This document shows, one piece after another, positions 7,961 to 47,009 of a DNA stretch of 64,000 nt. The stretch is from the IMG/VR virus record IMGVR_UViG_3300047491_001507. One strand, 5' to 3'. The stretch is from a virus. The position numbers and the translations under genes are program-made. The number at the start of each line of letters is the position of its first letter. Position 1 is the first letter of the stretch. The notes under the pieces were generated by a model. That model was not told the origin of the DNA. It saw nothing but the letters and a program-made list of their open reading frames with translations, and made no database searches.

Positions 7961-7964
7961 CGAG

Positions 7965-25120: not shown

Positions 25121-26881
25121 ATGGAATTTACAAGTGCATCTGAAGCTCTTAAGTATGTGATGAAAAATGGAACAGGCGGTCGTGATGGAACTGACGCACT
25201 CAATGAAATTGCAACAAGTGCAGAATGTTCTTATCTTTGTGCTGCGAATGATTTTAAGGGACGTTTTCCTTTGGGAGAACCAGCAATTGCCACCGATGCA
25301 TATTATGCTTATATGTATGCCAATCATGTAATTAAAGGCAGATTTCCTGAAGCCGAAGCAACAATTGCTAAAAGTCCAATCTACGCTTTTTATTATACCA
25401 GAGATATAATTAAGCGTAGATTCCCTGAATGTGAAAAAGCAATGGTGTCTAATTCGTACTATTTAGGCCAGTATGTTGATTTTTTGGGATTGGATATTGC
25501 AATTGTGGAAAAACCAACAATGACTGCCAAGGATGTAATTAAGGGCAGATTTCGAGAGGAGGTAATTGCACAGGACGCACAATATGCTTATATGTATGCC
25601 AATGAAGTAATTCATGGTCGTTTTGCTGAAGGCGAAGCAGCAATTGCCACCGATGCACAATGTGCTTATATGTATGCCAATGAAGTAATAAAAGGGCGTT
25701 TTGCTGAAGGTGAAGCAGCAATTGCTCAAATTGCCAATTATTCTTATATGTATGCTAAAAATGTAATCAAAGCTCGTTGGCCTGAGGGCGAAAAAGCAAT
25801 TGCACAGCACGGATATCTTTCTTATTTGTATGCCAAGGATGTAATAAAAGGTAGATTTCCTGCTGGAGAACCGGCAATTCTTAAAGGTGATTCAGAATGG
25901 ATAAAAGGATATATAAAAACTTTCAAATTAAATCTTGTTAGTAGTTTTCTAGAAGATGATTGTTCTTTCGAGGAACAGCAGATTGTTGCAGAAAAACCAC
26001 GTTTCACAACTGCTGAAGAAGCTTATAGTTATGCTTTGAGTAAAAACCAGCCATCTCCTGAGTGTGAAGCGGTAATTGCTCAAGATGCCAAATGGTCGCA
26101 TTTGTATGCTTATGATATTATTCATGGACGATTTCCCGCTGGAGAACCAGTAATTGCTCAAAGTGCCAGTTATTCTTACGCATATGCAATAAATGTAATA
26201 AAAGGGCGTTTTGCTGAAGGTGAACCAGCAATTGCTAAAAATACTGATCATGCTTACAAATATGCCAAATATGTAATAAAAGGGCGTTGGCCAGAAGGCG
26301 AACCAGCTATTGCTAAAAATGTATTATGTTCCTTTGAATACGCTAGAGACGTAATTCATGATCGTTTTCCTGCTGGTGAACCAATCATTATGGGAAACCT
26401 CTGGTATTCTAGGGAATATCGAAACGTTTTCAAATTAAAGCTTGGTTTTCTAGAAGACGAACAGCAGATCCCAGCCGAAGCTTTTTCATCTCCTGAAAAA
26501 GCATATAGGCATGCTCGTGAAGTAGCTAAAGTACGTTGTCCGAAATTAGAGCCAATAATCAAAGAAGATGCGGAATGGGCTTACAAATACGCCAATGAAG
26601 TAATAAAAGGGCGTTTTGCTGAAGGCGAAGCAGCAATTGCCAAAAGTCCACTATATGCATGTTATTATGCTTGCGATGTACTCAATGGACCATTTCCAGC
26701 AGGAGAGCAGGCAATTCTTGGAAGTGTGGAATACATCTACAAATATGCCTTGAATGCACTAAAGGGGCGTTGGAGAAAAGCAGAGCCAATGATTGTTAAG
26801 GATCGTTATTTTGCACTAGGCTATGCTCGATTTTTCAATTTGGAAGTTACCACTGGTTTTACAGAGAAAGAATCGAAATGA
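25121..26881 (+). CDS. 33-aa repeat family protein (about 16 repeats)
   Basis: Iterated ...AIAxDAxYAYMYANEVIKGRFAEGE... units. Confidence 0.65.
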   Translation: MEFTSASEALKYVMKNGTGGRDGTDALNEIATSAECSYLCAANDFKGRFPLGEPAIATDAYYAYMYANHVIKGRFPEAEATIAKSPIYAFYYTRDIIKRRFPECEKAMVSNSYYLGQYVDFLGLDIAIVEKPTMTAKDVIKGRFREEVIAQDAQYAYMYANEVIHGRFAEGEAAIATDAQCAYMYANEVIKGRFAEGEAAIAQIANYSYMYAKNVIKARWPEGEKAIAQHGYLSYLYAKDVIKGRFPAGEPAILKGDSEWIKGYIKTFKLNLVSSFLEDDCSFEEQQIVAEKPRFTTAEEAYSYALSKNQPSPECEAVIAQDAKWSHLYAYDIIHGRFPAGEPVIAQSASYSYAYAINVIKGRFAEGEPAIAKNTDHAYKYAKYVIKGRWPEGEPAIAKNVLCSFEYARDVIHDRFPAGEPIIMGNLWYSREYRNVFKLKLGFLEDEQQIPAEAFSSPEKAYRHAREVAKVRCPKLEPIIKEDAEWAYKYANEVIKGRFAEGEAAIAKSPLYACYYACDVLNGPFPAGEQAILGSVEYIYKYALNALKGRWRKAEPMIVKDRYFALGYARFFNLEVTTGFTEKESK

Positions 26882-27272: not shown

Positions 27273-29504
27273 ATGAACGTGAATCCTGAAATAGTACGAA
27301 AAGCTTACAATTGTGCTGTGAGTTCTGACAATCGTTGTCCTGAATGGGAAGCAATCATTGCTACTGATGCATCTCACTCTTATAAATATGCTCTTAATCA
27401 TCTTGAAGGTCGTCGTTTTCTAGAAGGCGAAGCGGTAATTGCAAAAGACGCACAATGTGCCTTTTTTTATGCTAGAGATGTGATTGGTGGACGCTGGCCT
27501 GAAGCAGAAGAGGCAATTGCTACAGATGTACAATATGCCTTTTATTATGCTCGTAATGTGATTAAGGGTAGATTTCCAGAAGGCGAAAAGGCAATTGCCA
27601 CTGATGGTCATCTTGCTTTTTTATATGCTAAATTCACAGGAATGGATATTACTTTTGTTGAAAAACTTAAGTTTGCTAATCCAGCAGATGCTTATCGTTA
27701 TGCTTTCAATCATCCAGATAAGCGTTATCCTGAAGCGGAAGAGGTAATAGTAACAAATGCATATGTATCATATCTTTATGTCTGCAATGTTCTGAAAAGG
27801 CGTTGGGCAGAAGGTGAAGCGGTAATTGCAAAAAACGCACAAAATGCCTTTTTTTATGCTAGAGATGTGATTGGCGGACGCTGGCCTGAAGCAGAAGAGG
27901 CAATTGCTACAGATGCAAAATACGCCTGTTTGTATGCTATGGATGTAATTAAAGGGCGTTTTGCTGAAGGCGAACCAGCTATTGCTCAGAGTGCAGATTG
28001 GGCTTGGCTTTATGCTAAGAGCGTAATTAAGAGAAGATTTCCTGAAGCAGAAAAAGCAATTGCTCAGGTTAAATCTATTAATAGGGAATATTGTGATAAA
28101 TTCCCGTTGAAATTTGATAGTCCATCAAGTGCTTATCGTTATGCTATTGCCCACCCAAAGCAATGTTGTCCTGAAGTAGAAGATAAAATAGCAGAAAATG
28201 CCTACATGTCATATCTTTATGCTCTTCATGTTTTAAAATCTCGATTTCTTAAGGGAGAGAAAGCAATTGCTCAAGCAGCACCAACTGCTTATATTTATGC
28301 CAAAGACATTATTAAAGGTAGGTTTCCTGAGGCAGAACCTGCTATTGCTAAAGATGCATATTATGCATTTCTTTATGCTTTGCAGATAATTAAAGGACGT
28401 TGGCCCGAAGCAGAGCCAACAATTATCAAAAATGCGGAATGGGCTTATCGTTATGCCGAAAAAATAATAAAGGCACGTTGGCCTGAGGCAGAAGCAGTAA
28501 TTGCTAAAAGCTCACCTTGGGCTTATAATTATGCCGTAGATATGATTAAGGATCGTTGGCCTGAGGCAGAATCTACGATCCTAGCATCAGCAGATGCATC
28601 CAAATATGCCAATAACTTTAAATTAACAATTACGCTGGAAAAACCGAAATTTACAACGCCAGTAGAAGCTTATGGCTATGCTAGAGATATAGTGAAAGGT
28701 CGTTGTCCTGAAGCAGAGCCGATGATTGCTCAGGATGCACAGTTTGCTGCTCTTTATGCCAAGAGCATAATTCAGGGTCGTTGGCCTGAAGGCGAAAAGG
28801 TGATTGCTCAGGATGCACATTGGGCTTGTTTTTATGCTATAAATGTAATCAAAGCTCGTTGGCCTGAGGGCGAAAAAGCAATTGCTCAGGATGCACATTA
28901 TGCTTATAGATATATTAAATATGTGATAAAAGATCGTTGGCCTGAAGCAGAGCCGATGATTGCTCAGGATGCATATTACGCTTGTTTTTATGCTATGAAT
29001 ACAATCAAAAGCCGTTGGCCTGAAGGTGAAGAGGCAATTGCTACAGATTCGTATCTTTACAAGAAATATTGCAAGGAATTTTCAATAGCAGAAGGTTATA
29101 ACCCGAAATTAATGACTCCAGTAGAAGCTTATAGTTACGCTAAAGATGTGTTAAAAGGTCGTTGTTCCGAATGCGAAGCAACAATTATTCAAAGTCCAAT
29201 TTTTGCATATCGTTATGCTCAAGATGTGTTAAAAGGTCGCTGGATTGAGGCAGAACCAGTAATCGCTACTGATCCTGGCATTGCATATCTCTATGCAGAC
29301 AAGATAATTAGAGGAAGATTTCCTGAGGCAGAAGTAGAAATTTCACGATCTGTATTTGCCTCCAAATATGCTGCTCTTTTTGGATTGGAATTTGCTGGTT
29401 TTAAACCAGAATTGACAAAAAGTAAAGAATCTGTTACTTTGGATGAAATTCTGACAAGACTTGAAAATTTGGAATCAAAATTGCACAATATGTTTTTATG
29501 CTAA
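27273..29504 (+). CDS. 33-aa repeat family protein (about 20 repeats) with C-terminal coiled coil
   Basis: Iterated VIKGRWPEAEExIA units over 743 aa. Confidence 0.65.
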   Translation: MNVNPEIVRKAYNCAVSSDNRCPEWEAIIATDASHSYKYALNHLEGRRFLEGEAVIAKDAQCAFFYARDVIGGRWPEAEEAIATDVQYAFYYARNVIKGRFPEGEKAIATDGHLAFLYAKFTGMDITFVEKLKFANPADAYRYAFNHPDKRYPEAEEVIVTNAYVSYLYVCNVLKRRWAEGEAVIAKNAQNAFFYARDVIGGRWPEAEEAIATDAKYACLYAMDVIKGRFAEGEPAIAQSADWAWLYAKSVIKRRFPEAEKAIAQVKSINREYCDKFPLKFDSPSSAYRYAIAHPKQCCPEVEDKIAENAYMSYLYALHVLKSRFLKGEKAIAQAAPTAYIYAKDIIKGRFPEAEPAIAKDAYYAFLYALQIIKGRWPEAEPTIIKNAEWAYRYAEKIIKARWPEAEAVIAKSSPWAYNYAVDMIKDRWPEAESTILASADASKYANNFKLTITLEKPKFTTPVEAYGYARDIVKGRCPEAEPMIAQDAQFAALYAKSIIQGRWPEGEKVIAQDAHWACFYAINVIKARWPEGEKAIAQDAHYAYRYIKYVIKDRWPEAEPMIAQDAYYACFYAMNTIKSRWPEGEEAIATDSYLYKKYCKEFSIAEGYNPKLMTPVEAYSYAKDVLKGRCSECEATIIQSPIFAYRYAQDVLKGRWIEAEPVIATDPGIAYLYADKIIRGRFPEAEVEISRSVFASKYAALFGLEFAGFKPELTKSKESVTLDEILTRLENLESKLHNMFLC

Positions 29505-31049: not shown

Positions 31050-31217
31050 ATGTGTTTATTTCATAAATGGGATAATAATGATTGTCGCTGGCCTAGTTTA
31101 AGCGTATCACTTGAACCAGAAAATAAAGAAAGAACCTGCTTGAAATGTGGCGAAAAACAGGAATGGATACAATATCCTCTGCATATCGGTTTTATGACTG
31201 ATCAGCCTTGGGGTGTT
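31050..31217 (+). CDS. zinc-ribbon-like N-terminal portion of the 160-codon ORF 31050..31532 (no stop before the tRNA-like element)
   Basis: CRWPS...CLKCGEKQEW; the reading frame continues through the tRNA-like sequence, so the gene boundaries are uncertain. Confidence 0.3.
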
Positions 31218-31233
31218 TGGAGAAGAAAAATAA

Positions 31234-31308
31234 GCCAGTGTAGCTCAAATGGAAGAGTCTCGTGTCATTGTGGCATGGGAGATGTTGGTTCGAATCCAAC
31301 CACTGGCT
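31234..31308 (+). tRNA. tRNA-like element (possible degenerate tRNA or tRNA remnant); anticodon arm non-canonical
   Basis: Exact 7-bp acceptor GCCAGTG/CACTGGC, D-arm TAGCTCAAATGGAAGAGT and T-arm GTTGG-TTCGAAT-CCAAC at correct tRNA spacing (75 nt), but the middle 25 nt fold into an 8-bp hairpin with a 5-nt loop. Confidence 0.45.
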
Positions 31309-31319
31309 TGGAGGAAAAA

Positions 31320-31532
31320 ATGAAAAAATTTGATTCAAAAGAGGAATTAGACTTATTTTTGAGATCTAAACATCGTCCTTATGATGTTGATACCCATTGG
31401 CAAATGGAAGATATGGAATATCAGTTTCCCATTTGGACAGAATTTTTAGGGACCACCCATCTGGGGGCTGCATTCAAAGTAAGAAATCGTGAACAAATGT
31501 TGGCTCTTAAACAAATTTTTATGGATTTATAA
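31320..31532 (+). CDS. hypothetical protein (C-terminal portion of ORF 31050..31532, or an independent gene)
   Basis: ATG at 31320 preceded by GGAGGAAAAAA; in frame with the upstream ORF. Confidence 0.4.
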   Translation: MKKFDSKEELDLFLRSKHRPYDVDTHWQMEDMEYQFPIWTEFLGTTHLGAAFKVRNREQMLALKQIFMDL

Positions 31533-31534: not shown

Positions 31535-31768
31535 ATGGCGGCATCCACTGGAATTGACGGCCTGATCGAGGCATTGAAAATCTTTCGAAAGTATGGGAAC
31601 CCACCGTATCCAACCGCCTGCCGATTCGATGAGTTGATCATCGTTGGCATTACGCCTGAGCAGGTTAGTGATGAGGACAAGGCTAGTCTCGATAAACTAG
31701 GGTTCATTGTCAGCAATGAGGATGACGAGTGCGAGTGTTTCAAATCGTTCAGATATGGATCGGCGTAG
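31535..31768 (+). CDS. hypothetical small protein on a GC-rich island
   Basis: 77-aa ORF with ~50% GC against ~36% background. Confidence 0.5.
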   Translation: MAASTGIDGLIEALKIFRKYGNPPYPTACRFDELIIVGITPEQVSDEDKASLDKLGFIVSNEDDECECFKSFRYGSA

Positions 31769-32512: not shown

Positions 32513-32694
32513 TGTCCAAAGAAAAGAAATGGTTGGAATACGCCCATCTTCATCCTGTAGAATGGAAATCCTACTTAGGTAGCTGTAATTGTTATGTTTG
32601 TGTGAAATATCGAGCAGATTTTGAACAGTGGCTAAAAAAACAAGACATTTCTCAAATTAATTCCATGAAATGGAAGGGAAATCGTGTCATCTAA
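32509..32694 (+). CDS. hypothetical small Cys-containing protein
   Basis: 61-aa ORF; ATGA overlap. Confidence 0.45.
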   Translation: MMSKEKKWLEYAHLHPVEWKSYLGSCNCYVCVKYRADFEQWLKKQDISQINSMKWKGNRVI

Positions 32695-32707
32695 AGGAGT
32701 TGAAGTC

Positions 32708-34048
32708 ATGAAATTTAAATCACTACAAGAAGCTTATAATCATGTTCTTGTTTATGGGCCTTCTCCTGAAGCAGAATCTGTCATTGCTACAAATTCAGCA
32801 TGGTCTTATGTTTATGCTCGTGATATAATTAAAGGCAGATTCCCTTTGGGCGAGGCAGCGATTGCCACAGATACAATCAGATCTTATGAATACGCTCTCA
32901 ATGTGCTTAAAGGTAGATTTCCTGAAGGCGAGAAAATAATTGCCACAAATCCACGGTGGTCATATGAATATGCTCTCAATGTGATTAAAGGCAGATTTCC
33001 TGAAGGCGAACCGGAAATTGCTGCAAGTAGTGTTTATGCTTGGCTTTATTCTAGAAGTGTTGGCTTGCTCAAACCGGAATTGAAATTTATGAAACCAGCA
33101 GAAGCTTACGATCATGCTAAAGATGTGGTAAAAGGTCGTTGTCCTGAAGCAGAAGTAGAAATTATTAAAAGTGCAGAATATTCTTATTATTATGCAACAA
33201 ATGTTTTGAAGTCTCGCTTTCCTGAAGGCGAAGCAACAATTGCTCAGGATGCACAATGGTCTTATCATTATGCTCTTTATGTTTTGAATGGGCGATTTCC
33301 GTTGGGCGAAGCAGTAATTATTCAAGATCCATTTTATGCATGTTACTATGCAGTAAATGTTATGAAAGATCGTTGGCCTGAAGCAGAGGCGACGATTTCA
33401 AGGTCTACTAACCTTGTCAGTAAATATGCAGATCAGTTTAAATTGGCGGTGACACTTGCTGACACACCGTTGAAATTTGCAACAATAAAAGAAGCTTATA
33501 GTTATGCTCAGAATCATCCAAGAGAACATTGTCCTGAAGCAGAAAAGATGATCGCTCAAGATGCTTCAACTTCTTATTTGTATGCTAGATATGTGATTAG
33601 AAAGCGTTTTCCAGAAGGCGAAGTAACAATTGCAAGAAACCCCTCTTCTGCTTATTATTATGCCAACGAAGTGATTGGTGGACGTTGGCCTGAATGTGAA
33701 GCAGAACTTGCTAAAAATGTACAATATGCTTATCTTTATGTTGTAAATATAATCAAGGGTCGTTGGTTTGAAGCTGAAGCAGCGATTGTTCAAAACCCAG
33801 AATATGCTTGCCTATATGCGATAAATGTTCTAAAGGCTCGTTGGCCTGAAGCAGAAGAAGGAATTTTGAAACATTCTGATCCTGTTCATGCTTATAAATA
33901 TGCTGAACATTTTAAATTGACATTCTCTAGTTTCATGCCGAAACCGAAATCCGAATTGACACTAAGTTCTGCAATTGATAAAATTGACACCATAGAAAAA
34001 CAAATAGCAAGTTTGGAAAAAAGACTTTCTAATTTGGAAGAACAATAA
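32708..34048 (+). CDS. 33-aa repeat family protein with C-terminal coiled coil
   Basis: AAGGAG SD before the ATG at 32708 (the track start at 32684 is a GTG); iterated VIKGRFPEGE units. Confidence 0.65.
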   Translation: MKFKSLQEAYNHVLVYGPSPEAESVIATNSAWSYVYARDIIKGRFPLGEAAIATDTIRSYEYALNVLKGRFPEGEKIIATNPRWSYEYALNVIKGRFPEGEPEIAASSVYAWLYSRSVGLLKPELKFMKPAEAYDHAKDVVKGRCPEAEVEIIKSAEYSYYYATNVLKSRFPEGEATIAQDAQWSYHYALYVLNGRFPLGEAVIIQDPFYACYYAVNVMKDRWPEAEATISRSTNLVSKYADQFKLAVTLADTPLKFATIKEAYSYAQNHPREHCPEAEKMIAQDASTSYLYARYVIRKRFPEGEVTIARNPSSAYYYANEVIGGRWPECEAELAKNVQYAYLYVVNIIKGRWFEAEAAIVQNPEYACLYAINVLKARWPEAEEGILKHSDPVHAYKYAEHFKLTFSSFMPKPKSELTLSSAIDKIDTIEKQIASLEKRLSNLEEQ

Positions 34049-39706: not shown

Positions 39707-39735
39707 TCGCCGTTCCTTGGAGCGGCGATTGTTAT
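39707..39735. terminator. possible bidirectional terminator at the convergent strand switch
   Basis: TCGCCG-ttccttggag-CGGCGA hairpin flanked by T-runs on both strands, between the last + gene and the first - gene. Confidence 0.35.
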
Positions 39736-41213
39736 TTTAATACCACAAATGTTACATCTTTGCCCTGCATGTCCTCTTGAGCATCCTCATAACTGTTACA
39801 AATCGGCTTTCCTGCTCGATTTAAAGAAGTGTTGATAAAACACTCATGTCCAGTTAATTTGCCGTATTCAACCAAAAGTTCATGTAGCCAAGGGTCTTTT
39901 TCTTTATAAACGACCTGTGGCCTTGATGAAAAATCACGATGCACTATGGCTGGTAAATATTGCTTGGCCATATCAGTACAAATACAACGATATTGCATGT
40001 ATTCGCCTTTGGGACCAATGAAATATTGATCAAAAGCTTCTGATGTCACTACAGGAGCCAAAGGACGATAAAACTCTCTCCCTTTTATGCCTTCTGAAAC
40101 AATTTTGAGGTTTTCTGCCTTGGCAGAAGCGAAAATAGATCTAAATCCCAAAGCTCTTGGCCCTGCTTCGCTTTTACCCCTCATTAAAGCTACAATTTTG
40201 CCCCTAGCAATGAGTTTGGCGATCTCTTGGGGTTCCTGTGCCCCTATTTGAGGCAAAGGCGTCTGAAGGGCATTAATGGCCGCAGAATTGATTTTGGGCC
40301 ACTTCTTATAAACATGGAAATAAGCAAGAGCAGCAGCACCTAAAGCAAGACCACTATCATTAATTGGCGGTCCAAAGACCAAGTCTTGAGTCATATTGTA
40401 AATCCTGGTGTTTAGCTCCAAAGCTAATGCAGTACCTCCACCAACAACCACTCCACGATTGCTGCCAAATTTTTCTATGTTTTCTTTGATATTGACCCAG
40501 ATTTGCTCAATAAGGAACTTGTAAAAACCAGCAATAAACTCCATATCGTTTGAATTTGGATTTTTGAACTCAATATAACACGGAACTATACTGTTCCAAT
40601 CATAAGAAACATTCAATAACTTCATGACATTTTTTGCATCCCACTCAATTGGGGGGATGTGTGGCAAATAACCAGCCAATCCCATGGCTTTTCCTGCCGA
40701 ATTATGTCCTAGAAGAGTGCAAATTGGAACACTTGAAGGGACAGGAAGGGCATCTTCTATTTTGTAAAAGCCTTTTTTGTTTATTACGCCTACAAGAGAA
40801 GCTTTATTGGGTTGAGTAGGATCGATGCCATATCCACAGCCATCATAGGCTAAAAAAAGCCTTTCTTTGTCATCTGGTCGATAAAGCCAAGAAGAAACAG
40901 CATGTGCTAGATGATGATCTACGACAAGATTGAATTTGGAGTCAGGAAAAAGATGGTGAGGAGATTTTAGGTATCTAATTAAAGATGGATCGTATTTAGG
41001 AGTTGGATAATTCTCTTCGCCTAAAGAAGTGATAGCAGTAACATAGTTTCCGTTTAATAAATCTGGAAAAGCGTTGAGAATGGGATCGGGGGTATGGTAA
41101 TGGTTTTTATTTCTTGGAAAGAATCTTTCAGCTTGAGCGTAAAATTCTAACTCCGAATCGTTAAAAATAGCAATGGAAACGTCATGTTTACCGTGATATC
41201 CTATAAATCTCAT
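39732..41213 (-). CDS. carbamoyltransferase of the NodU/CmcH/TobZ family
   Basis: VVDHHLAHAVSSWLY (the DHHLAHAASAF motif) and C-terminal GPRALGFRSIFAS (GPRALGNRSIL motif). Confidence 0.75.
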   Translation of the reverse strand: MRFIGYHGKHDVSIAIFNDSELEFYAQAERFFPRNKNHYHTPDPILNAFPDLLNGNYVTAITSLGEENYPTPKYDPSLIRYLKSPHHLFPDSKFNLVVDHHLAHAVSSWLYRPDDKERLFLAYDGCGYGIDPTQPNKASLVGVINKKGFYKIEDALPVPSSVPICTLLGHNSAGKAMGLAGYLPHIPPIEWDAKNVMKLLNVSYDWNSIVPCYIEFKNPNSNDMEFIAGFYKFLIEQIWVNIKENIEKFGSNRGVVVGGGTALALELNTRIYNMTQDLVFGPPINDSGLALGAAALAYFHVYKKWPKINSAAINALQTPLPQIGAQEPQEIAKLIARGKIVALMRGKSEAGPRALGFRSIFASAKAENLKIVSEGIKGREFYRPLAPVVTSEAFDQYFIGPKGEYMQYRCICTDMAKQYLPAIVHRDFSSRPQVVYKEKDPWLHELLVEYGKLTGHECFINTSLNRAGKPICNSYEDAQEDMQGKDVTFVVLK

Positions 41214-42019
41214 AGCAGTTCGTCAGCTTGTTTGTTGTCTAATGTAAATTTCTTCATTAAATGGCCTTTGATGGCTTGGTCAGATAGTCCTTGTTTTCTA
41301 AGCAATTGAATGAATTCTTGTGGTGTAAACTCTTGTTTTGGTTTAGACAGTGGTTTGCTTGCCTGTTTTTTGGCAGAATCTACAATTCTCTGAGTTGTTT
41401 GGGCGATATTTGCCTCAACATGATCTTGATGTCTTCCAGATTGATCTGCCCACATAATAATCAGAAGCAGCTTAATTCTTTGATTATTGATAATCTTTCC
41501 ATTGACAAAAAAGTCTTTAAGGAACTTTTTGGAGAAAATATTGCCACAAAGATGCATGTGGTTTTCTACTAGCCAATCAATTAGGGCTTCATGCTGGTGA
41601 TAAATTTGCTTGACCGCTGGATCAAAATCCTCTGAAACATACGCAATAAGAGGCTTGAAATGCTTAGATTCTTGATGTCCATAAGAGGTAATTTTGCCAT
41701 CTCGTTCTTCTGTACGAGTAGCTTTGGCAATATCATGCAAGAAAGCAGCCAGGGTCAATATGTCTTTTTCTTCATCAGATATATTGAAGTCTATATCTGA
41801 AATAACAGGACACAATGGATGATTGGGGTCTTTTTGAATATTTTGCAGCTTCAACCTTACTGGCTCTAAAGCAGCAACAACCATTTTGGTGTGGGTGAGT
41901 ACATCCCCTTCTTTATGGTGTTTTGCGTCTTGTTTGATATTGTCCAACAATTGGAGAAATTTACCCCCCAATTGGGAAATATCAATACTTTCTTGTAATA
42001 GCCAGTTTTTAAATTTCAT
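41210..42019 (-). CDS. HD-domain phosphohydrolase
   Basis: HHKEGDVLTHT...LAAFLHDIAKA, an H...HD metal-binding pattern. Confidence 0.6.
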   Translation of the reverse strand: MKFKNWLLQESIDISQLGGKFLQLLDNIKQDAKHHKEGDVLTHTKMVVAALEPVRLKLQNIQKDPNHPLCPVISDIDFNISDEEKDILTLAAFLHDIAKATRTEERDGKITSYGHQESKHFKPLIAYVSEDFDPAVKQIYHQHEALIDWLVENHMHLCGNIFSKKFLKDFFVNGKIINNQRIKLLLIIMWADQSGRHQDHVEANIAQTTQRIVDSAKKQASKPLSKPKQEFTPQEFIQLLRKQGLSDQAIKGHLMKKFTLDNKQADELL

Positions 42020-42035
42020 ATGTAATATATAGAGT

Positions 42036-43019
42036 ATGGAAGTTCAAAAACTCACATGTCGTTGGGTAAGAAGCGGATTGACCTTCGGAATAGATAAACT
42101 ACATGTTTGCTGTATAACTCATCATACAAATCTAGGTTTTGTTCCGATTTGCGAATATCATGGTGGAGATTTGCCAATTGACAAAATAATGCTTAAAAGA
42201 CAAGAATTATTGGTGCAAAACGTAATTGATGGATATGATTCCTGTAAGGGATGTATTTTTCAAAATGCTGAGCCATTCAAGTCAGAATATCTATTTGATC
42301 AGTTGAATTTTTCTCATTATACGCTTTGCAATCTTAGATGCAAGTACTGCTACATAGGGATTGACTGGAATAAAGGTGGAAACCTTGGGTTGAGGAAAAA
42401 CTATTACGATGTAATGCCAGCTTTAGAACAATTGACAAAAAACAACTGGTTGGACCCTCGATCTGCTATTTATTGGGGTGGTGGAGAGCCAACATTATTG
42501 CGTAGATTTGATGAGATTCTGGGTCTTCTTTTGGATTATGGAACATACAACTTCTTGAACACCAATGGAACGGTATTTTCTCAAGCAATATTTGATAAAT
42601 TAGGACAAGACAATCTGCACATAATATATGGAATTGACAGTGGACTAAATGAGACATACAAACAAATGAAAGGCAAAGACTTTCTAGATCAAGTGTTTGA
42701 GAATTTAAAAAGATATGTTAGTGTACATGGCGATTCAATCATTGTAGCGAAATATATTATAACAGATATTAATCATAGCATTCCTGAACTAGAAGAATTT
42801 TTTAGAAGAGTTTTGGAGACAGGGGTCAAAAATCTTTATATCGATTTAGATTCAACAATAAATGCAACCCAAGAGCATATAGATGCAATGGAATATTTGA
42901 GAGATTTATTTAAAGAGACAGATGTTGATGTAAAGTTTTGTGGCTGTGGAGTAAATGCTCTACACAACCAATCTATTCATTACCATGGCGACAAAATCTT
43001 ACCTAGCTTAATTGTGTAA
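42036..43019 (+). CDS. radical SAM enzyme with Cys-rich N-terminal extension
   Basis: CNLRCKYCY (CX3CX2C) and YWGGGEPTLL; the only sizeable + strand gene inside the - block. Confidence 0.7.
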   Translation: MEVQKLTCRWVRSGLTFGIDKLHVCCITHHTNLGFVPICEYHGGDLPIDKIMLKRQELLVQNVIDGYDSCKGCIFQNAEPFKSEYLFDQLNFSHYTLCNLRCKYCYIGIDWNKGGNLGLRKNYYDVMPALEQLTKNNWLDPRSAIYWGGGEPTLLRRFDEILGLLLDYGTYNFLNTNGTVFSQAIFDKLGQDNLHIIYGIDSGLNETYKQMKGKDFLDQVFENLKRYVSVHGDSIIVAKYIITDINHSIPELEEFFRRVLETGVKNLYIDLDSTINATQEHIDAMEYLRDLFKETDVDVKFCGCGVNALHNQSIHYHGDKILPSLIV

Positions 43020-43470
43020 ACAATTCTTTCAAATAGCCTTTTGCTGCTTCGTAACTGCCAGGAGCAGTTTTTTCAGAGTTTCCTGCGACATTTAGTGTTT
43101 TAATGTTGTTTTCGTTTAGCCAGTTGACCACATCTTCTACAGGTCTGGGATTTGCCAGATCTACATCAATGTAAGGTTTTTTATAGTATTTAATGGCTTC
43201 AAATGTGCAGATTTCTCCAGGGCTTGAGAAATCAAAAGCCAAACGGATTGTTCCATCACTATTTTTAACATTTAGCTTTGTTCTAGGAACATAGCTGCTG
43301 GATGTATGGGTGGTGCATCCGAATAGGTCTTTGTATTCTGGTTTACAACCATCTAAGGTTTTAAAACCATAAGGCATTAATCCTCCGGTTCTAAATCCAA
43401 ATTCTTTGGCTGTTTCTAATCCAGCAAAATCACTGCCTGTCTGACCGCCTGATATTACTTTTTTCAACAT
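43003..43470 (-). CDS. SLOG-superfamily / MoCo-carrier-like (YpsA-like) protein
   Basis: ISGGQTGSDFAGLETA...GG..P and LNVAGNSEKTAPG match the MoCo-carrier/SLOG signature. Confidence 0.55.
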   Translation of the reverse strand: MLKKVISGGQTGSDFAGLETAKEFGFRTGGLMPYGFKTLDGCKPEYKDLFGCTTHTSSSYVPRTKLNVKNSDGTIRLAFDFSSPGEICTFEAIKYYKKPYIDVDLANPRPVEDVVNWLNENNIKTLNVAGNSEKTAPGSYEAAKGYLKELFTQLS

Positions 43471-44183
43471 TATTTTTCCTCACATTTTAATAATTCATTT
43501 AGTAGCACTTTGTAAACATGTTCATTGCCAGGAGCACATTTCGGTTCTTTTGACCCATAACCATAAAATTCACAGATTGCTCTAGCAACTCCCAGCGAAA
43601 CGTTAAGGAAAGCATGAGTTATTAGCAAAACATCGATTTTTTCCCAGTTTTTGTCCAAGAATTTTTTGATTAGGGATGCATGATGTTCAGAAAACGGATT
43701 CGGTCCAGCGAATTCTCTGGCACCAGTAACACAAAACTTTAGTGTATCAAAATTATTATCTGCACTTAAATTGTAACCAAAATATATTCTTGCTACCTCG
43801 TGCGGATCTGCATCCTCATGCCAAAATCGCATATTGATGTGTGCCCAAGGTTTATCACATTTAAATTCTTTGGTTTGTTTTGGAGTCAAACACAGAGTTT
43901 TGTGAATGACAGGTGTTCCCACATATCGTTCCACTGGCACAATTATTTGATTGCCAGACTCGTCAGCAACACAAATTTGATCATGTTCTGCCATGTGTGT
44001 CAATAAATCATTTTCAAAAATTTCATCCATATTGGTCTCTTTTTTTCTTCTTTGATATTGATGATGAAAGGGACAATGATATCCGCTGACATGGTCCGAT
44101 AAAAGACAAATCGATTCATCTGGCTTAGTGGTTTTAATTGTTATTTTTTTTGGTGTTTCAGCCGACATATCATTCTTTCTCAT
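43470..44183 (-). CDS. hypothetical protein (several His/Cys clusters)
   Basis: 237-aa ORF; an alternative ATG 15 nt inside the track start. Confidence 0.5.
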   Translation of the reverse strand: MRKNDMSAETPKKITIKTTKPDESICLLSDHVSGYHCPFHHQYQRRKKETNMDEIFENDLLTHMAEHDQICVADESGNQIIVPVERYVGTPVIHKTLCLTPKQTKEFKCDKPWAHINMRFWHEDADPHEVARIYFGYNLSADNNFDTLKFCVTGAREFAGPNPFSEHHASLIKKFLDKNWEKIDVLLITHAFLNVSLGVARAICEFYGYGSKEPKCAPGNEHVYKVLLNELLKCEEK

Positions 44184-44685
44184 CCCACCAACGTTTTCCA
44201 GAGTAATATCCTGCCTCGTCCATCGCTTTTGCTACAATCTTGCACTCTTCACAACGACAAGTTTCTCCTGGCATTATACCCGATTCAAGAACCACATGAG
44301 CATTTGCATGCATATCCATCTGTGTTTTTTCAAGTTGTTCTCGCAATTGTTTATTATCCTCTGCCATTTGTTTCATAGTTGCCCGATTGCCAGCAACTAT
44401 TGACCACAATCGATGATGGGGTTGTGGTTCGGATATTTCTTCTTCGCCGTCTAGCTTTTCCGCAACTTCAATAATATGTTCTAGTTGTTTAATGTAGTCT
44501 TCGACATAAATCTTTTCTTCTCTATTGTATTTGACTGATATTACTTCTAAGTCTAGACATTTGGCTAATTTTTTAATAGCCCATCTGGCTCTGGCAAAGG
44601 AACCCTGTCCTGCATAGTCCTGATAGTCATATTCAAACCAAGCATTAAGCAAATCTAAACATTCTTTATATTCTTCAGGGTTCAC
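44170..44685 (-). CDS. hypothetical protein with C-terminal CRCEEC motif
   Basis: 171-aa ORF. Confidence 0.5.
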   Translation of the reverse strand: MNPEEYKECLDLLNAWFEYDYQDYAGQGSFARARWAIKKLAKCLDLEVISVKYNREEKIYVEDYIKQLEHIIEVAEKLDGEEEISEPQPHHRLWSIVAGNRATMKQMAEDNKQLREQLEKTQMDMHANAHVVLESGIMPGETCRCEECKIVAKAMDEAGYYSGKRWWDEKE

Positions 44686-44700
44686 TATTCCGCTCTCTTT

Positions 44701-44910
44701 CTAAGGCACAAAAACAATAAAATCGTAATAAGTCAACATACTAACAAATATAATTGTAGCCGATATAATAAAAACTGCGATTGTGTGTTTGGTTCTTGGA
44801 TGATACGGATATGCAATAACTGCTGTAACTAACATCATTACTACAAAAAGCACTACAAATAGTAGTAGCCAGAAAATGACAGAGAGAATTGGTTGAGTAT
44901 GAATAACCAT
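44701..44910 (-). CDS. small membrane protein (2-3 TM)
   Basis: Highly hydrophobic 69-aa ORF. Confidence 0.45.
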   Translation of the reverse strand: MVIHTQPILSVIFWLLLFVVLFVVMMLVTAVIAYPYHPRTKHTIAVFIISATIIFVSMLTYYDFIVFVP

Positions 44911-45002
44911 TTTTAAGAACGCTCCTTGGAACCTCTACTTTTAAATATTAACAAAAACACGATTGCCACCATCATCAAAACATTCAACTCGTTGATAACA
45001 TC

Positions 45003-45191
45003 TCAAAACCCTTCTACTCTGATCTTGAAATCGTAAACCGGTCCCAGTTGATCAGGAATATCAGTCGATTTATACACTGGCACTTCTACTGTTTTAGTTG
45101 TGCCATCTGCATTTTTAACTTCAATTTTCATAAATCTTACCGGAGCAACTGTTTTAGTTGCGTCATCTGCATTTTTAACTTCAATTTTCAT
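45003..45191 (-). CDS. small protein with an internal tandem duplication
   Basis: MKIEVKNADDATKTV...MKIEVKNADGTTKTV, from a ~57-bp DNA tandem repeat. Confidence 0.4.
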   Translation of the reverse strand: MKIEVKNADDATKTVAPVRFMKIEVKNADGTTKTVEVPVYKSTDIPDQLGPVYDFKIRVEGF

Positions 45192-45219
45192 AATTAATTC
45201 CTTTCATTTTCAAACATTC

Positions 45220-46008
45220 TCATATATCTGTTCCTGCTTCGGTTGCCAATGGCAAGCCAAGGACTGATTTGAACGATTCTTTCCATCTTATCTTAGGTTC
45301 GTCCTTGAGAATATTGTAAATCTCATGAACACGTTCGTCAGTCTGTCCCATTTCAATACGAGCAATTTCTTGAGGATCAGTGTCTGGTTGTACTCTGGTT
45401 CGAACATGGTTCATTTTGCCGATCCAGAAAGTGCCTGTAATCCATGGTTCTAGTTTGTGAAACAATTCAACGACATTCTTGCTGTCTAGCATTGGTTCCA
45501 CGCTGACACTTGTCTGAAACCCCTGCTCCCAAGCATATTTTAGACAATTGAAACGTTCAGCATAAGTAGGTGCCCCTGGCTCCCAATAGGCTAAAATATT
45601 ATCATCATAAGCTCCGATGGTGAATCGGAATTGAATTTGATCTTTTTGTTCAGCGAATTTTTCACAAATAGCTTTAATCACTTCCATGTACGGTTTAGAA
45701 ACTAACAGGATGTTATTGCCTGCTTTTGTTAATCGCTGAATGGCTTCTAGAGTTTCGGGCAGTATGTCTGGTGTAAGATCATGGGCCGTGGGAAACATTA
45801 CCACGCCATCATATTTTTTACTGAATCCAGTAAAAGGTCTTTCCTTGAGTTGATTATAAGTTGTTCCCCATGTTTCTGAATCACATTTGCCTAATCGAAC
45901 TGTACGTTCACGAGCATAGCAGTATCGACAACGATGAACGCACCCCAAATGAATGTTGAGTGAAACTTTTGCCCACTCCAAGGTGCCACTGATTTTTTTC
46001 TTTGTCAT
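45220..46008 (-). CDS. radical SAM protein, SplB/COG1533-like (spore-photoproduct-lyase-type DNA repair fold)
   Basis: GCVHRCRYCYAR (CX3CX2C followed by Y-A). Confidence 0.65.
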   Translation of the reverse strand: MTKKKISGTLEWAKVSLNIHLGCVHRCRYCYARERTVRLGKCDSETWGTTYNQLKERPFTGFSKKYDGVVMFPTAHDLTPDILPETLEAIQRLTKAGNNILLVSKPYMEVIKAICEKFAEQKDQIQFRFTIGAYDDNILAYWEPGAPTYAERFNCLKYAWEQGFQTSVSVEPMLDSKNVVELFHKLEPWITGTFWIGKMNHVRTRVQPDTDPQEIARIEMGQTDERVHEIYNILKDEPKIRWKESFKSVLGLPLATEAGTDI

Positions 46009-46163
46009 GATTGTTTCCTAAGACTTTTTTCCATTACAATGATGGTCAAAATAGCAATTATTGCTGTAATCCAGGCTAAGGTTTCGTGAAAGCGACCTTT
46101 TGATATGCTTATGCTTAAACATATTAGGCCGCATACAACACTAATATAATATAATATCATCAT
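46005..46163 (-). CDS. small membrane protein (53 aa)
   Basis: ATGA overlap with the radical SAM gene; hydrophobic; below the track cutoff. Confidence 0.35.
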   Translation of the reverse strand: MMILYYISVVCGLICLSISISKGRFHETLAWITAIIAILTIIVMEKSLRKQS

Positions 46164-46186
46164 CTTTAATCTGCAATTTCTAGTAC

Positions 46187-46384
46187 TTAATTCCTTTCCT
46201 TAAACTTTCTAATAATATCTAAGTTGAATATATCAGCATAATTTTGTGAAGGTATTGAATCCGAAAGAATCGTTGCTTCAGCTTCAAGCCAACGTCTTTT
46301 AAGTGTGTTTTTAGCATACAGATAAGCATAAGTTGGACTTGAAGCAATTATCGCTTCACCTTCAGGAAATCTGCCAAACAACAC
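46187..46384 (-). CDS. 33-aa repeat family, short or truncated copy
   Basis: Two repeats plus the family C-terminal ADIFNLDIIRKFKERN motif, downstream of the full-length copy. Confidence 0.45.
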   Translation of the reverse strand: MLFGRFPEGEAIIASSPTYAYLYAKNTLKRRWLEAEATILSDSIPSQNYADIFNLDIIRKFKERN

Positions 46385-46406
46385 ATCTCTAGCGTAAAAA
46401 ATTCTG

Positions 46407-47009
46407 TCATGTTGTTATTCTTTCCGCAAACTTCCTGATAACATCCAAGTTAAATTGCTTGGCGTAACAACGAGTACAATCATCACTTGTAAAAATTACC
46501 TTTTCTGCTTCAGGCCAACGTGCTTTAATTATTTCTTTGGCATATCTGACGGCACAATGTGGATCTTTCGCAATTGCCGCTTCGCCTTCAGGAAATCGAT
46601 CTTTTATTATCTTAATCGCATATTCACAAGCATAATATGCACTGGTGGCAATTACTGCTTCGCACTTAGGCAAACGTTCTTGAACTACTTCTTTGACGTA
46701 ATTATAACACCATTCTGGATTTTTTAGGATTGCTGGTTCGCCTGTGAGCCAACGTCCTCGCACAATATTCTTGGCATAAAAAAAAGCATATTGCGGATTT
46801 TTCGCAATAAGCTCTTCTGCTTCAATAATTTCACGAAAATGAGTGCCATTTTTGATTATGTAATTATAAGCCTCATATGCCGTTGCAAATTCAATTCTAC
46901 TGACACCGAGTATATCACCGAGTATATTATCGAACTGCCGACCCAGATCCTGATCTCCATCTTCAGCAAGCCTCTTAACCAGAAGAGCAATCACTTCGCT
47001 AATTTTCAT
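46407..47009 (-). CDS. 33-aa repeat family protein with N-terminal ISEVIALLVKRLAEDGD module
   Basis: 200-aa ORF with 4-5 repeats. Confidence 0.6.
   Translation of the reverse strand: MKISEVIALLVKRLAEDGDQDLGRQFDNILGDILGVSRIEFATAYEAYNYIIKNGTHFREIIEAEELIAKNPQYAFFYAKNIVRGRWLTGEPAILKNPEWCYNYVKEVVQERLPKCEAVIATSAYYACEYAIKIIKDRFPEGEAAIAKDPHCAVRYAKEIIKARWPEAEKVIFTSDDCTRCYAKQFNLDVIRKFAERITT

What the first reader, a model, noticed from the sequence alone, without database searches (positions are those of the whole stretch)
31050..31532. tRNA-like sequence read through in-frame by a 160-codon ORF
Positions 31234..31308 carry unmistakable tRNA hallmarks at exact tRNA spacing:
- a perfect 7-bp acceptor stem, GCCAGTG/CACTGGC
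- a D-arm, TAGCTCAAATGGAAGAGT
- a T-arm, GTTGGTTCGAATCCAAC

The central 25 nt do not form a canonical 5-bp-stem/7-nt-loop anticodon arm. Instead they form an 8-bp hairpin with a 5-nt loop. The whole element lies in-frame inside ORF 31050..31532 with no stop codon on either side. Possible explanations:
- a decayed tRNA gene, or an attP-like tRNA remnant, fortuitously kept open
- a gene fusion created by insertion
- a tRNA-like structured RNA with a regulatory role

The adjacent GC-rich gene (31535..31768) supports a history of horizontal insertion here.
Basis: seen in the sequence. Interest (0 to 1): 0.6.

Follow-up and report, generated by a model that had tools for sequence, protein, structure and literature searches.

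The report
Odd phage tRNA between two genes
A real tRNA-type gene with a sealed, non-standard anticodon loop sits between two unrelated small genes of a roughly 306-kb phage, and the "160-codon ORF" only looks like one gene because the upstream gene has lost its stop codon.

Summary
Positions 31234-31308 (+) form a cloverleaf that ARAGORN calls and Rfam's tRNA model scores at 43.4 bits (cut-off 29). All 21 body base pairs and the usual tertiary nucleotides are intact. The anticodon region is abnormal: 9 nt instead of 7, with its ends pairing into an 8-bp stem and an AUUGU loop.

Acceptor stem, discriminator U73 and a UGU triplet point to tRNA-Thr(UGU) descent. ARAGORN's "Gln" call comes from forcing a 7-nt loop.

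The 160-codon ORF is open but is not one gene:
- Residues 1-60 match stand-alone 48-63 aa proteins with a CxxH...CxxC motif.
- Residues 91-160 match stand-alone 68-77 aa proteins from their first residue. This part has its own GGAGG and ATG (31320) and folds alone at pLDDT 96.9.
- Nothing matches residues 65-87, and there is no coding signal there.

The expected stop of the upstream gene, TAA 31231-33, lies one base out of frame after an A5 run.

No relative of the RNA was found, so whether it is a decaying tRNA or a selected non-decoding mimic stays open. I favour a non-decoding relic that is still processed. Interest is low to moderate.

The parts
31050..31233 (+). Gene A: small CxxH...CxxC (zinc-ribbon-like) protein gene, expected product about 60 aa ending ...GVWRRK. 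It has no in-frame stop and so runs on into the tRNA.
   Evidence: Residues 1-45/57/64 match stand-alone 48-63 aa proteins P0002 (69% identity), P0009, P0010 and P0011. P0010 and P0011 end 3 residues after the conserved GxW. Codon score is +13 bits in this frame against -19 and -35 in the other two.
31226..31233 (+). A5 run (31226-31230) followed by TAA (31231-31233). The TAA lies in the +1 frame of gene A and immediately precedes the tRNA. One A fewer would end gene A at ...WRRK*.
   Evidence: Sequence read directly.
31234..31308 (+). tRNA-type gene of tRNA-Thr(UGU) descent, 75 nt, no encoded CCA. Intact acceptor, D and T arms. Non-canonical anticodon region.
   Evidence: ARAGORN. Rfam tRNA 43.4 bits. 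Fold. The acceptor and D-stem pattern retrieves tRNA-Thr in 112 of 120 other matching sequences in bacterial genomes and in most viral contigs, and those listed are 72-73 nt (bacterial) or 73-74 nt (viral) with a YUUGUAA or YUCGUAA loop.
31259..31279 (+). Anticodon-arm replacement: 8-bp helix (C59-G79 to C66-G72, three G.U pairs) capped by AUUGU. In standard numbering this is C26-G44, a 5-bp stem, and a 9-nt loop UCAUUGUGG whose outer 2+2 nt pair.
   Evidence: pair probabilities 0.989-1.0. There is no second copy in the window.
31310..31314 (+). GGAGG Shine-Dalgarno sequence of gene B, beginning 2 nt after the tRNA discriminator and 5 nt before the ATG.
   Evidence: SD cores occur upstream of 23 of 36 confident starts against 16% of random 20-mers.
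31320..31532 (+). Gene B: independent 70-aa protein gene of unknown function.
   Evidence: Eight stand-alone homologues: six of 68-77 aa, plus P0005 (108 aa) and P0012 (87 aa). Seven align from their residue 1 or 2 to Met91 (P0001, P0003-P0007, P0013); P0012 carries a 15-residue N-terminal extension and aligns from its residue 16. AlphaFold2 on the 70 aa alone gives pLDDT 96.9 with a strand at residues 2-4. Codon score is +26.5 bits. There is no PDB fold match.
31535..31768 (+). Neighbouring 77-aa gene, GC-richer (49%). A shuffled small accessory gene, not part of the tRNA feature.
   Evidence: GC content. Low codon score of 0.11 bits per codon. Homologues of 55-67% identity lie on unrelated contigs with no synteny.

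Best explanation
The window comes from a jumbo phage; an identical neighbouring protein lies on a 306-kb contig. At 31234-31308 the phage carries a genuine tRNA-family gene descended from tRNA-Thr(UGU). It lies in an 86-nt gap between two unrelated small protein genes.

What is shown:
- The tRNA body is fully intact: acceptor, D and T arms; U8, A14, G18G19, A21; the A15-U48 pair; G46; and a TTCGAAT T-loop.
- The anticodon region has 9 instead of 7 nucleotides (UCAUUGUGG). Its outer bases pair (U65.G73, C66-G72), which leaves an 8-bp stem and an AUUGU pentaloop.
- The 160-codon ORF is a composite. Gene A (about 60 aa) has no in-frame stop, because its expected TAA (31231-33) is offset by one base after an A5 run.
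- The tRNA sequence has no stop in that frame, as is true of about a third of frames in tRNA genes.
- Gene B is in the same frame by chance (about 1 in 3) and has its own GGAGG and ATG.

What is inferred:
- The intact body should be recognised by RNase P, by a 3' processing enzyme and by the CCA-adding enzyme, like the phage's two canonical CCA-less tRNAs. The RNA would then be cut out of the long + strand transcript.
- No 7-nt loop has both a usable stem and a standard loop. The well-paired register has A33 and U37, with C32 pairing G38. The register that puts U33 before UGU has a poor stem. The RNA therefore cannot present a standard triplet anticodon. It is most likely a non-decoding relic of a tRNA-Thr gene.
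- Excision would leave the gene A message without a stop codon, a target for tmRNA. It would give gene B a very short leader. Unprocessed transcripts could yield an A-linker-B fusion.
For: tRNA nature:
-.

Thr descent:
- The pattern GCCAGTGTAGCTC...CCACTGGC retrieves tRNA-Thr(UGU/CGU) in 112 of 120 other matching sequences from bacterial genomes, and 110 of them have U73 as here.
- Most viral hits are also tRNA-Thr(UGU), 73-74 nt with a YUUGUAA loop.
- UGU is present in the loop.

Composite ORF:
- A phmmer search of 1.84 billion representatives gives only half-length hits: query residues 1-64 or 88-160, none across 65-87.
- Alignments A2 and A3.
- The two homologues sit in different, non-adjacent contexts in other contigs, including bacterial chromosomes.
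- Codon scores are +13 (gene A), -2.4 (tRNA stretch) and +26.5 bits (gene B).
- Gene B folds on its own at pLDDT 96.9.
- SD statistics.

Lost stop:
- TAA at 31231 is in frame +1.
- Its position matches the C-termini of P0010 and P0011.

Chance of an open frame:
- 0.33 per frame.

Local norm:
- The other tRNAs in the window also lack CCA and are followed within 14 nt by the next start codon.
Against: - A gene in neutral decay should collect changes everywhere. Here all 21 body pairs and all tertiary positions are intact, while the loop differs from the YUUGUAA norm by a 2-nt gain plus two A-to-G changes that together create two new pairs. That pattern hints at selection for a closed arm. The ancestor is unknown, so this is only suggestive.
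- No relative exists, so neither decay nor conservation can be measured.
- Processing, CCA addition and non-stop decay are inferred, not observed.
- The A5 run has no independent confirmation. The Logan contig L001 is 100% identical over 12 kb and may derive from the same sample.
- The Thr assignment rests on the acceptor stem, U73 and UGU.
Confidence: 0.62

Rival explanations
1. Selected non-decoding tRNA mimic. The intact tRNA-Thr body with a deliberately sealed anticodon arm is kept because it binds tRNA-handling proteins without entering translation. It could act as a decoy or sponge for a host tRNA-targeting defence nuclease. It could also act as a cis element: bound by RNase P or ThrRS, it would control access to the GGAGG 2 nt downstream and so the expression of gene B.
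For: - Perfect body and tertiary nucleotides, with all deviations confined to the loop and creating two extra pairs.
- The phage invests in tRNA biology. It encodes a Thg1-like 3'-5' polymerase and HD-domain proteins next to tRNAs. Contigs carrying homologues of genes A and B carry PTH2, Ro60-vWA and RlaP.
- Phage tRNAs are known counter-measures to tRNA-cleaving immunity (PMC10264068, PMC11464382, PMC11555353).
- The SD abuts the tRNA 3' end.
Against: - It is a singleton, with no conservation or covariation.
- The tight tRNA-to-next-gene spacing is the norm in this phage, so it needs no special explanation.
- Anticodon nucleases recognise the loop, and a sealed loop would not mimic it.
- No defence or anti-defence partner gene was identified nearby.
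Confidence: 0.2
2. Unusual but functional decoder. The 9-nt loop opens in vivo, helped by modifications or the ribosome, and the tRNA is charged by ThrRS. It would then read ACA, or a 4-5 base codon such as ACAA or ACAAU, as an expanded-anticodon frameshift suppressor. Alternatively it is a nuclease-resistant tRNA-Thr.
For: - G1:C72, C2:G71, U73 and a UGU preceded by U (31268) and followed by a purine (31272) are all present.
- ARAGORN calls non-7-nt anticodon loops in 8 of 547 unselected phage tRNA calls.
- Natural 8-nt-loop tRNAs are functional, for example yeast mitochondrial tRNA-Thr1 (PMC3113583).
- Four-base decoding by mutated tRNAs is broadly tolerated (PMC9094753).
Against: - The loop-closing pairs are predicted with probability of at least 0.997 and are worth about 5 kcal/mol.
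- No 7-nt loop has both a usable stem and a standard loop. The well-paired 7-nt register has A33 and U37.
- Position 37 is not A in either register. From my own knowledge, tRNAs that read ANN codons carry t6A at position 37.
- The Rfam score is 22-28 bits below the phage's two canonical tRNAs.
- No frameshifted gene that needs such a tRNA was identified.
Confidence: 0.08
3. Real 160-aa protein. The ORF is one gene, and the tRNA-like sequence is embedded coding sequence serving as a linker. It would have arisen by insertion of a tRNA-derived element into a gene, or by a gene fusion that is now selected.
For: - The frame is open from 31050 to 31532, and gene callers annotate a 160-aa product.
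Against: - No homologue spans both halves or covers residues 65-87.
- The halves occur separately and non-adjacently elsewhere.
- There is no coding signal over the tRNA stretch.
- Gene B has its own strong SD and ATG, and its homologues start exactly there.
- The gene A homologues P0010 and P0011 stop where the out-of-frame TAA lies.
- The chance expectation for this arrangement is about 0.1 once the stop is lost.
Confidence: 0.06
4. attP-type remnant. The element is the phage copy of a host tRNA gene end used for site-specific integration.
For: - The acceptor stem is identical to that of tRNA-Thr genes in many bacteria, including Saprospiraceae, Chitinophagaceae and Verrucomicrobiota.
Against: - Both halves of the cloverleaf are present, not just the 3' part.
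- Identity to the retrieved bacterial tRNAs does not extend beyond the 9-10 nt imposed by the search pattern.
- The genome is a jumbo phage of about 306 kb, and no integrase was found among the 29 ORFs scanned.
Confidence: 0.02

Closest known systems
Phage- and bacterium-encoded tRNA-Thr(UGU) genes, for example those on IMG/VR contigs L253-L276
   Same: - Identical acceptor stem GCCAGUG/CACUGGC and D-stem 5' strand, as imposed by the search pattern, and in most of them discriminator U73.
- A UGU triplet.
   Different: - Those genes are 73-74 nt with a 5-bp anticodon stem and a 7-nt YUUGUAA loop.
- This one is 75 nt with UCAUUGUGG, whose ends pair into an 8-bp stem and a 5-nt loop. It has G instead of A at the two positions 3' of UGU and U25 instead of C25.
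Phage tRNA calls with non-standard anticodon loops (ARAGORN 'tRNA-???', tRNAscan-SE 'pseudo/undetermined')
   Same: - A good cloverleaf body with an anticodon loop that is not 7 nt. This is a minority class, 8 of 547 unselected ARAGORN calls in viral contigs.
   Different: - Most of those have 6- or 8-nt open loops. Here the loop has 9 nt and is self-complementary.
- None of them is a sequence relative of this RNA.
Expanded-anticodon-loop tRNAs: yeast mitochondrial tRNA-Thr1 (8-nt loop, PMC3113583); sufJ-type +1 frameshift suppressor tRNA-Thr and laboratory 9-nt-loop tRNAs for 5-base codons (my own knowledge)
   Same: - Extra nucleotides in the anticodon loop of an otherwise normal tRNA, and a link to threonine.
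   Different: - Those loops stay open and keep U33 and a purine at position 37 in register.
- Here the extra bases pair with positions 37 and 38, and no decoding role is evident.
tRNA-punctuated polycistronic transcripts: phage T4 tRNA cluster and mitochondrial tRNA punctuation (my own knowledge)
   Same: - A tRNA embedded between protein genes on one strand, presumably released by RNase P and 3' processing, which also separates the flanking messages.
   Different: - Normally the upstream gene keeps its stop codon. Here it does not, so excision would create a non-stop message.
- Processing has not been shown here.
E. coli thrS translational operator, a tRNA-Thr anticodon-arm mimic next to the SD (my own knowledge)
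   Same: - A tRNA-Thr-like structure directly upstream of a Shine-Dalgarno sequence.
   Different: - The operator mimics a canonical 7-nt anticodon loop and regulates thrS itself.
- Here the loop is the non-canonical part, and the downstream gene is an unrelated 70-aa ORFan.
- Tight tRNA-to-gene spacing is general in this phage.
Phage tRNAs that escape anticodon nucleases through anticodon-loop changes (PMC10264068; PARIS and T5 tRNA-Lys, PMC11464382)
   Same: - A phage-encoded tRNA whose differences from the cellular type are concentrated in the anticodon loop.
   Different: - Those tRNAs keep a 7-nt decoding loop and still function in translation. This one does not look capable of decoding.

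Membership tests
tRNA (Rfam RF00005) | Score at or above the curated gathering threshold of the covariance model | tested here: met
   43.4 bits against a cut-off of 29, E = 6.4e-6. The window's two canonical tRNAs score 65.5 and 71 bits.
tRNA (Rfam RF00005) | 7-bp acceptor stem, 4-bp D stem, 5-bp T stem, and conserved U8, A14, G18G19, A21 and T-loop UUCGAAU | tested here: met
   All are present and paired. One pair is G10.U25.
tRNA (Rfam RF00005) | 5-bp anticodon stem with a 7-nt loop, U33 and a purine at position 37 | tested here: not met
   The model's 17-nt arm is replaced by 20 nt. In standard numbering the loop has 9 nt and closes to 5 nt. ARAGORN's forced 7-nt loop CAUUGUG has A33, U37 and a C32-G38 pair.
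tRNA (Rfam RF00005) | Processed to a stable RNA of about 76 nt, given CCA and aminoacylated | not testable with these tools
   This needs RNA-seq, a Northern blot or charging assays. CCA is not encoded, as with the other two tRNAs in the window.
tRNA-Thr | Acceptor identity pairs G1:C72 and C2:G71. The acceptor and discriminator should match known tRNA-Thr genes. | tested here: met
   G1:C72, C2:G71 and U73 are present. The identical acceptor and D-stem pattern belongs to tRNA-Thr in 112 of 120 other matching sequences from bacterial genomes and in most viral hits.
tRNA-Thr | Anticodon NGU (G35, U36) presented in a canonical loop | tested here: inconclusive
   UGU is present at 31269-71, preceded by U and followed by G. 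It sits in a 9-nt loop predicted to be closed.
Single protein-coding gene of 160 codons | Homologues that span the whole product, with a coding signal throughout | tested here: not met
   All 13 hits cover only query residues 1-64 or 88-160. The codon score over 31233-31310 is -2.4 bits.
attP / tRNA-fragment integration site | Only the 3' part of a tRNA, identical to the host gene, with an integrase | tested here: not met
   The full cloverleaf is present. Identity to retrieved bacterial tRNAs does not go beyond the 9-10 nt imposed by the pattern. No integrase is among the ORFs scanned. The true host is unknown.
Expanded-anticodon frameshift-suppressor tRNA | An open 8-nt (or 9-nt) loop with U33 and a purine at position 37 flanking a 4-5 base anticodon, plus a gene that needs suppression | tested here: not met
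   The loop is predicted closed. No target gene was identified. Decoding itself cannot be tested here.

The most novel reading that the evidence does not exclude
The sealed-anticodon tRNA-Thr body is kept by selection as a non-decoding tRNA mimic. It could be a decoy for host tRNA-targeting immunity. It could instead be a cis-acting processing switch. Excision by RNase P would turn the stop-less gene A message into a tmRNA substrate and free gene B with a minimal leader. The unprocessed transcript would yield an A-B fusion or hide gene B's SD.
Probability: 0.15. Interest if true: 0.65.

Novelty: new member of a known kind. Interest (0 to 1): 0.3.

Why it matters
In practice this is an annotation lesson. 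Gene callers report a 160-aa ORFan here, but it is really two small genes plus a tRNA-type gene.

Biologically, it adds one clear example to the little-studied minority of phage tRNA genes with non-standard anticodon arms. That minority is about 1.5% of ARAGORN calls in the viral contigs sampled. This example has an otherwise flawless body and sits in a jumbo phage that also encodes tRNA-repair-type enzymes.

If such sealed-loop tRNAs proved to be conserved, they would be candidates for non-decoding roles in the contest between phages and tRNA-cleaving host defences. With a single sequence, that remains a hypothesis.

Tried and rejected
Searches for relatives of the locus:
- Megablast and tblastn against 50,697 phage records found nothing.
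- IMG/VR scans with the 160-aa ORF, the 454-aa repeat protein and the gene A profile found nothing. The gene B alignment was too variable for a pattern search.
- The word-indexed search of the 5.8-billion-protein collection with the 160-aa ORF found nothing. Only the exhaustive phmmer run found the half-length homologues.

Searches for relatives of the RNA:
- The D-loop/T-arm pattern in IMG/VR gave 6 unrelated tRNAs (Trp, Arg, amber suppressors).
- A length-selective pattern gave 120 unrelated tRNAs.
- Two JGI metagenome scans gave 0 hits and then 2 irrelevant hits.
- There is therefore no alignment, covariation analysis or covariance model.

Other tests that led nowhere:
- Synteny through neighbouring genes: contigs L128, L129, L252 and L277 each share one small gene with the window and nothing else.
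- Isotype by nearest neighbour over the arms was uninformative, because the generic D and T arms dominate the score.
- ARAGORN's tRNA-Gln(UUG) label is rejected. It needs an 8-bp acceptor, A33, U37 and a C32-G38 pair.
- The terminator-like hit at 31258-80 is the anticodon hairpin itself and does not exceed the shuffle expectation.
- An Rfam E-value scan of the whole window found no further tRNA-like or other RNA family.
- Gene B has no Pfam, PHROG, PDB-sequence or PDB-fold match. Gene A has only sub-threshold hits: Pfam ADD_DNMT3 at E = 0.0053 and 17.1 bits against a cut-off of 26, and PDB 2yb5_A at E = 0.33.
- A joint alignment of the 160-aa ORF with both homologue sets was misaligned by MAFFT, so it was not used for structure prediction.
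Full report
**1. The observation**

The sequence at 31234-31308 (+) reads as follows:
- GCCAGTG: acceptor 5' strand
- TA: U8 and A9
- GCTC / AAATGGAA / GAGT: D arm
- CTCGTGTC-ATTGT-GGCATGGG: central hairpin
- AGAT: rest of the variable region
- GTTGG-TTCGAAT-CCAAC: T arm
- CACTGGC: acceptor 3' strand
- T: discriminator

Three tools agree that this is a tRNA-type structure.
- ARAGORN finds three tRNAs in the 64-kb window. Two are canonical, Arg-UCU and Lys-UUU at 326-479, and the third is this one.
- Rfam's tRNA model scores this element at 43.4 bits, above its gathering score of 29, with E = 6.4e-6. It matches everything except the anticodon arm, where 20 nt replace the model's 17.
- The free-energy minimum is the cloverleaf at -30 kcal/mol, z = -3.5.

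In standard numbering the element has these parts:
- a C26-G44 pair
- a normal 5-bp anticodon stem, UCGUG/CAUGG
- a 9-nt loop, UCAUUGUGG
- a 5-nt variable region, GAGAU

The total is 75 nt, against 72-74 nt in the retrieved tRNA-Thr genes that share this acceptor. The outer loop bases pair (U31265.G31273, C31266-G31272) with probability of at least 0.997. The closed form is about 5 kcal/mol more stable than the open 9-nt loop.

ORF 31050-31532 is open for 160 codons.

**2. What kind of tRNA it is**

ARAGORN labels it Gln(UUG). That label requires an 8-bp acceptor and a 7-nt loop CAUUGUG with A33, U37 and a Watson-Crick 32-38 pair. I reject it.

I searched one genome per bacterial and archaeal species for the exact acceptor and D-stem strands, GCCAGTGTAGCTC...CCACTGGC.
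- Of the 120 other matching sequences, 112 are tRNA-Thr(UGU/CGU) and 9 are tRNA-Met; one has no ARAGORN call.
- 110 of them have U73, as this element does.

The same pattern in IMG/VR returns 24 phage loci. Apart from two tRNA-Phe-like loci (one sequence) and one tRNA-Met-like sequence, they are tRNA-Thr(UGU), 73-74 nt with a 7-nt YUUGUAA loop.

Our loop contains U-UGU-G. The element is therefore best read as a derivative of the common tRNA-Thr(UGU) type. It has two extra nucleotides 5' of the anticodon and G-G instead of A-A 3' of it.

The body keeps every tertiary feature I could check by eye:
- U8 and A14
- G18G19 with the T-loop
- A21
- the A15-U48 pair
- G46
- A9 with the U12-A23 pair

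No stem pair is broken.

**3. The ORF is a composite**

The window-level searches found nothing for the 160-aa product:
- Pfam: only one sub-threshold hit, ADD_DNMT3, E = 0.0053, 17.1 bits against a cut-off of 26
- PHROGs
- phage GenBank
- IMG/VR
- the word-indexed protein search

An exhaustive phmmer run against 1.84 billion representative proteins found 13 hits, and every one covers only half of the query.

Eight hits match the C-terminal half. Six are stand-alone proteins of 68-77 aa; P0005 (108 aa) and P0012 (87 aa) are longer.
- Seven of them match query residues 91-160 (or part) from their own residue 1 or 2; P0001 is 51% identical.
- P0012 matches query residues 88-155 from its residue 13.

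Four hits are stand-alone proteins of 48-63 aa that match residues 1-45, 1-57 or 1-64.
- P0002 is 69% identical.
- The shared motif is F-H-x-W-D ... R-x-C-x-x-C.

The thirteenth hit, P0008, is a 280-aa repetitive protein with a weak match (E = 1.9e-05) to residues 26-64. No hit covers residues 65-87, the part encoded by the tRNA.

The alignments show that the homologues of the second half start at Met91, the ATG at 31320. That ATG is preceded by GGAGG at 31310-14. SD cores are four-fold enriched before real starts in this window.

Other evidence agrees.
- Modelled alone, the 70-aa product gives pLDDT 96.9, with a strand starting at residue 2.
- A codon-usage score trained on the window's long genes gives +13 bits for 31050-31232, -2.4 bits for the tRNA stretch and +26.5 bits for 31320-31529. 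The other two frames are strongly negative in the two coding parts.
- In other contigs the two families are never adjacent. P0002 lies in a phage-like tRNA-rich stretch, P0001 lies next to Cpn10 and Ro60-vWA genes, and P0010 and P0011 lie in bacterial chromosomal contexts.

**4. Why it is open**

Two gene A homologues, P0010 and P0011, end three residues after a conserved G-x-W. In the window that point is ...GVWRRK. It is followed by TAA at 31231-33, directly in front of the tRNA, but the TAA lies in the +1 frame.
- The sequence is AGA AGA AAA ATA AGC, with an A5 run at 31226-30. One A fewer gives AGA AGA AAA TAA.
- The simplest history is a single-base gain in the A run that removed the stop.
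- A +1 ribosomal slip on AAA-A would restore termination, but there is no evidence for one.

Once the stop is gone, the rest is unremarkable.
- One third of sense-strand frames of 549 phage tRNA genes lack a stop.
- The downstream gene has a 1-in-3 chance of being in the same frame.

The only other assembly that carries the locus is 100% identical over 12 kb, so it does not confirm the A5 run independently.

**5. Context**

A neighbouring protein that is 100% identical lies on a 306-kb contig, so the source is a jumbo phage. The window encodes these products, among others:
- a Thg1-like enzyme
- HD-domain proteins
- CoaBC-type domains
- PspA
- several radical-SAM proteins
- a carbamoyltransferase
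- large repeat proteins

It is one long + strand block up to about 39.5 kb. The tRNA must therefore be cut out of a polycistronic transcript.

The other two tRNAs also lack an encoded CCA, and the next start codon follows them after 14 nt. The tight tRNA-SD-ATG spacing at 31308-31320 is therefore the local norm.

The GC-richer gene at 31535-31768 (49% GC) has homologues of 55-67% identity on unrelated contigs with no synteny. The region is a mosaic of shuffled small genes.

**6. How it most likely works**

Shown:
- It is a tRNA-family gene with an intact body and a sealed, non-standard anticodon arm.
- It has two independent flanking genes.
- The upstream stop codon is missing.

Inferred from general tRNA biology:
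- RNase P, a 3' endonuclease and the CCA-adding enzyme recognise the acceptor/T-arm and elbow, which are intact. The RNA is probably released like a normal tRNA.
- It has no U-turn in register and only a 5-nt loop, so it should not decode triplets.
- Release would leave the gene A message without a stop, a tmRNA substrate. Gene B would start 1 nt before its SD.
- Transcripts that escape processing could give an A-linker-B fusion.

I consider a non-decoding relic of a tRNA-Thr gene the most likely reading, with about 0.6 confidence for the whole account.

The main rival, at about 0.2, is that the sealed arm is selected as a decoy or a cis-regulatory mimic. All deviations sit in the loop and create pairs, while 21 body pairs are untouched. 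That is not what simple decay predicts. With an unknown ancestor and no relatives, this cannot be tested here.

The other rivals are less likely:
- a special decoder, about 0.08
- a genuine 160-aa protein, about 0.06
- an attP remnant, about 0.02

**7. Comparison with known systems, and novelty**

Non-standard anticodon loops are a known minority among phage tRNA predictions: 8 of 547 unselected ARAGORN calls in the viral contigs fetched here. Related cases in the literature are:
- expanded-loop tRNAs (PMC3113583, PMC7609411)
- phage tRNAs altered in the anticodon loop to escape nucleases (PMC10264068)

This element fails the anticodon-arm criterion of a canonical tRNA and passes all the others. 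It is a new, solitary member of the class of aberrant phage tRNA genes. It is not a new kind of system.

**8. Limits**

- tRNAscan-SE could not be run.
- Relatives were searched for by exact patterns only, and the source contig itself is absent from the scanned collections.
- Isotype assignment rests on the acceptor stem, the discriminator and the UGU triplet.
- All statements about processing and translation are inferences.

Noticed in passing
window 31214-31234 and 31352-31372: A 21-nt inverted repeat, 76% complementary with a perfect AAAAATAAG/CTTATTTTT core, brackets the tRNA, the SD and the first 17 codons of gene B. The MFE fold of 31195-31390 uses it as a long-range helix (z = -2.25 for the whole stretch). 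It could hide gene B's start in unprocessed RNA, or it could be chance in AT-rich sequence.
   Followed up: partly
window 326-479 and 683-1654: Two canonical tRNAs, Arg-UCU and Lys-UUU, sit 6 nt apart and neither encodes CCA. A small gene follows after 14 nt, and then a 323-aa HD_4-domain (RelA/SpoT-type HD) protein.
   Followed up: partly
window 5365-6225: A Thg1-like protein (tRNA-His guanylyltransferase / 3'-5' polymerase family, Pfam E = 3e-31). It points to a phage tRNA 5'-end repair or maturation activity.
   Followed up: no
window 7205-7960 and 10022-11131: Coenzyme A pathway domains are split over two genes. One carries the DFP (CoaB-type) domain. The other carries a Flavoprotein (CoaC-type) domain fused to an M23-peptidase-like C-terminus (PHROG endolysin-like hits).
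   Followed up: no
window 7938-8798, 25121-26881, 27273-29504, 32684-34048: A family of large proteins built from many copies of a repeat of about 36 aa (...AIAxDAxxAYxYAxxVIKGRWPEAE...). It has only weak Pfam hits (HTH_35, Phage_FRD3) and no close relative in IMG/VR.
   Followed up: partly
window 39732-48351: A cluster on the minus strand with a Nol-type carbamoyltransferase, an HD protein and three radical-SAM proteins. The coding strand and GC skew switch at about 39.5-44 kb.
   Followed up: no
L129 2337-3944 and 1059-1811; L128 2862-3269: Contigs carrying homologues of gene B and gene A also encode a Ro60-type vWA protein, RlaP, Cpn10 and a PTH2 peptidyl-tRNA hydrolase. Small genes of these families travel with RNA-repair and tRNA-related modules.
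   Followed up: no
L250 about 240-375 (minus strand): A GC-rich metagenome contig has a tRNA-like 5' half (GGTGCCGTGTAGCTCAAATGGAAGAGT...) and a matching 3' acceptor strand (CCACGGCACC) about 110 nt downstream. Neither ARAGORN nor Rfam calls anything there. It may be an interrupted or unusual tRNA.
   Followed up: partly
L136, L160/L190, L170, L148 and other viral loci: Viral contigs hold tRNA-like genes with 6-, 8- or self-complementary anticodon loops. One example is L136...ACTCAAATGTTTGAGT..., with UGU at the centre of a 7-bp palindrome. Sealed-loop tRNA-likes may recur in phages.
   Followed up: partly
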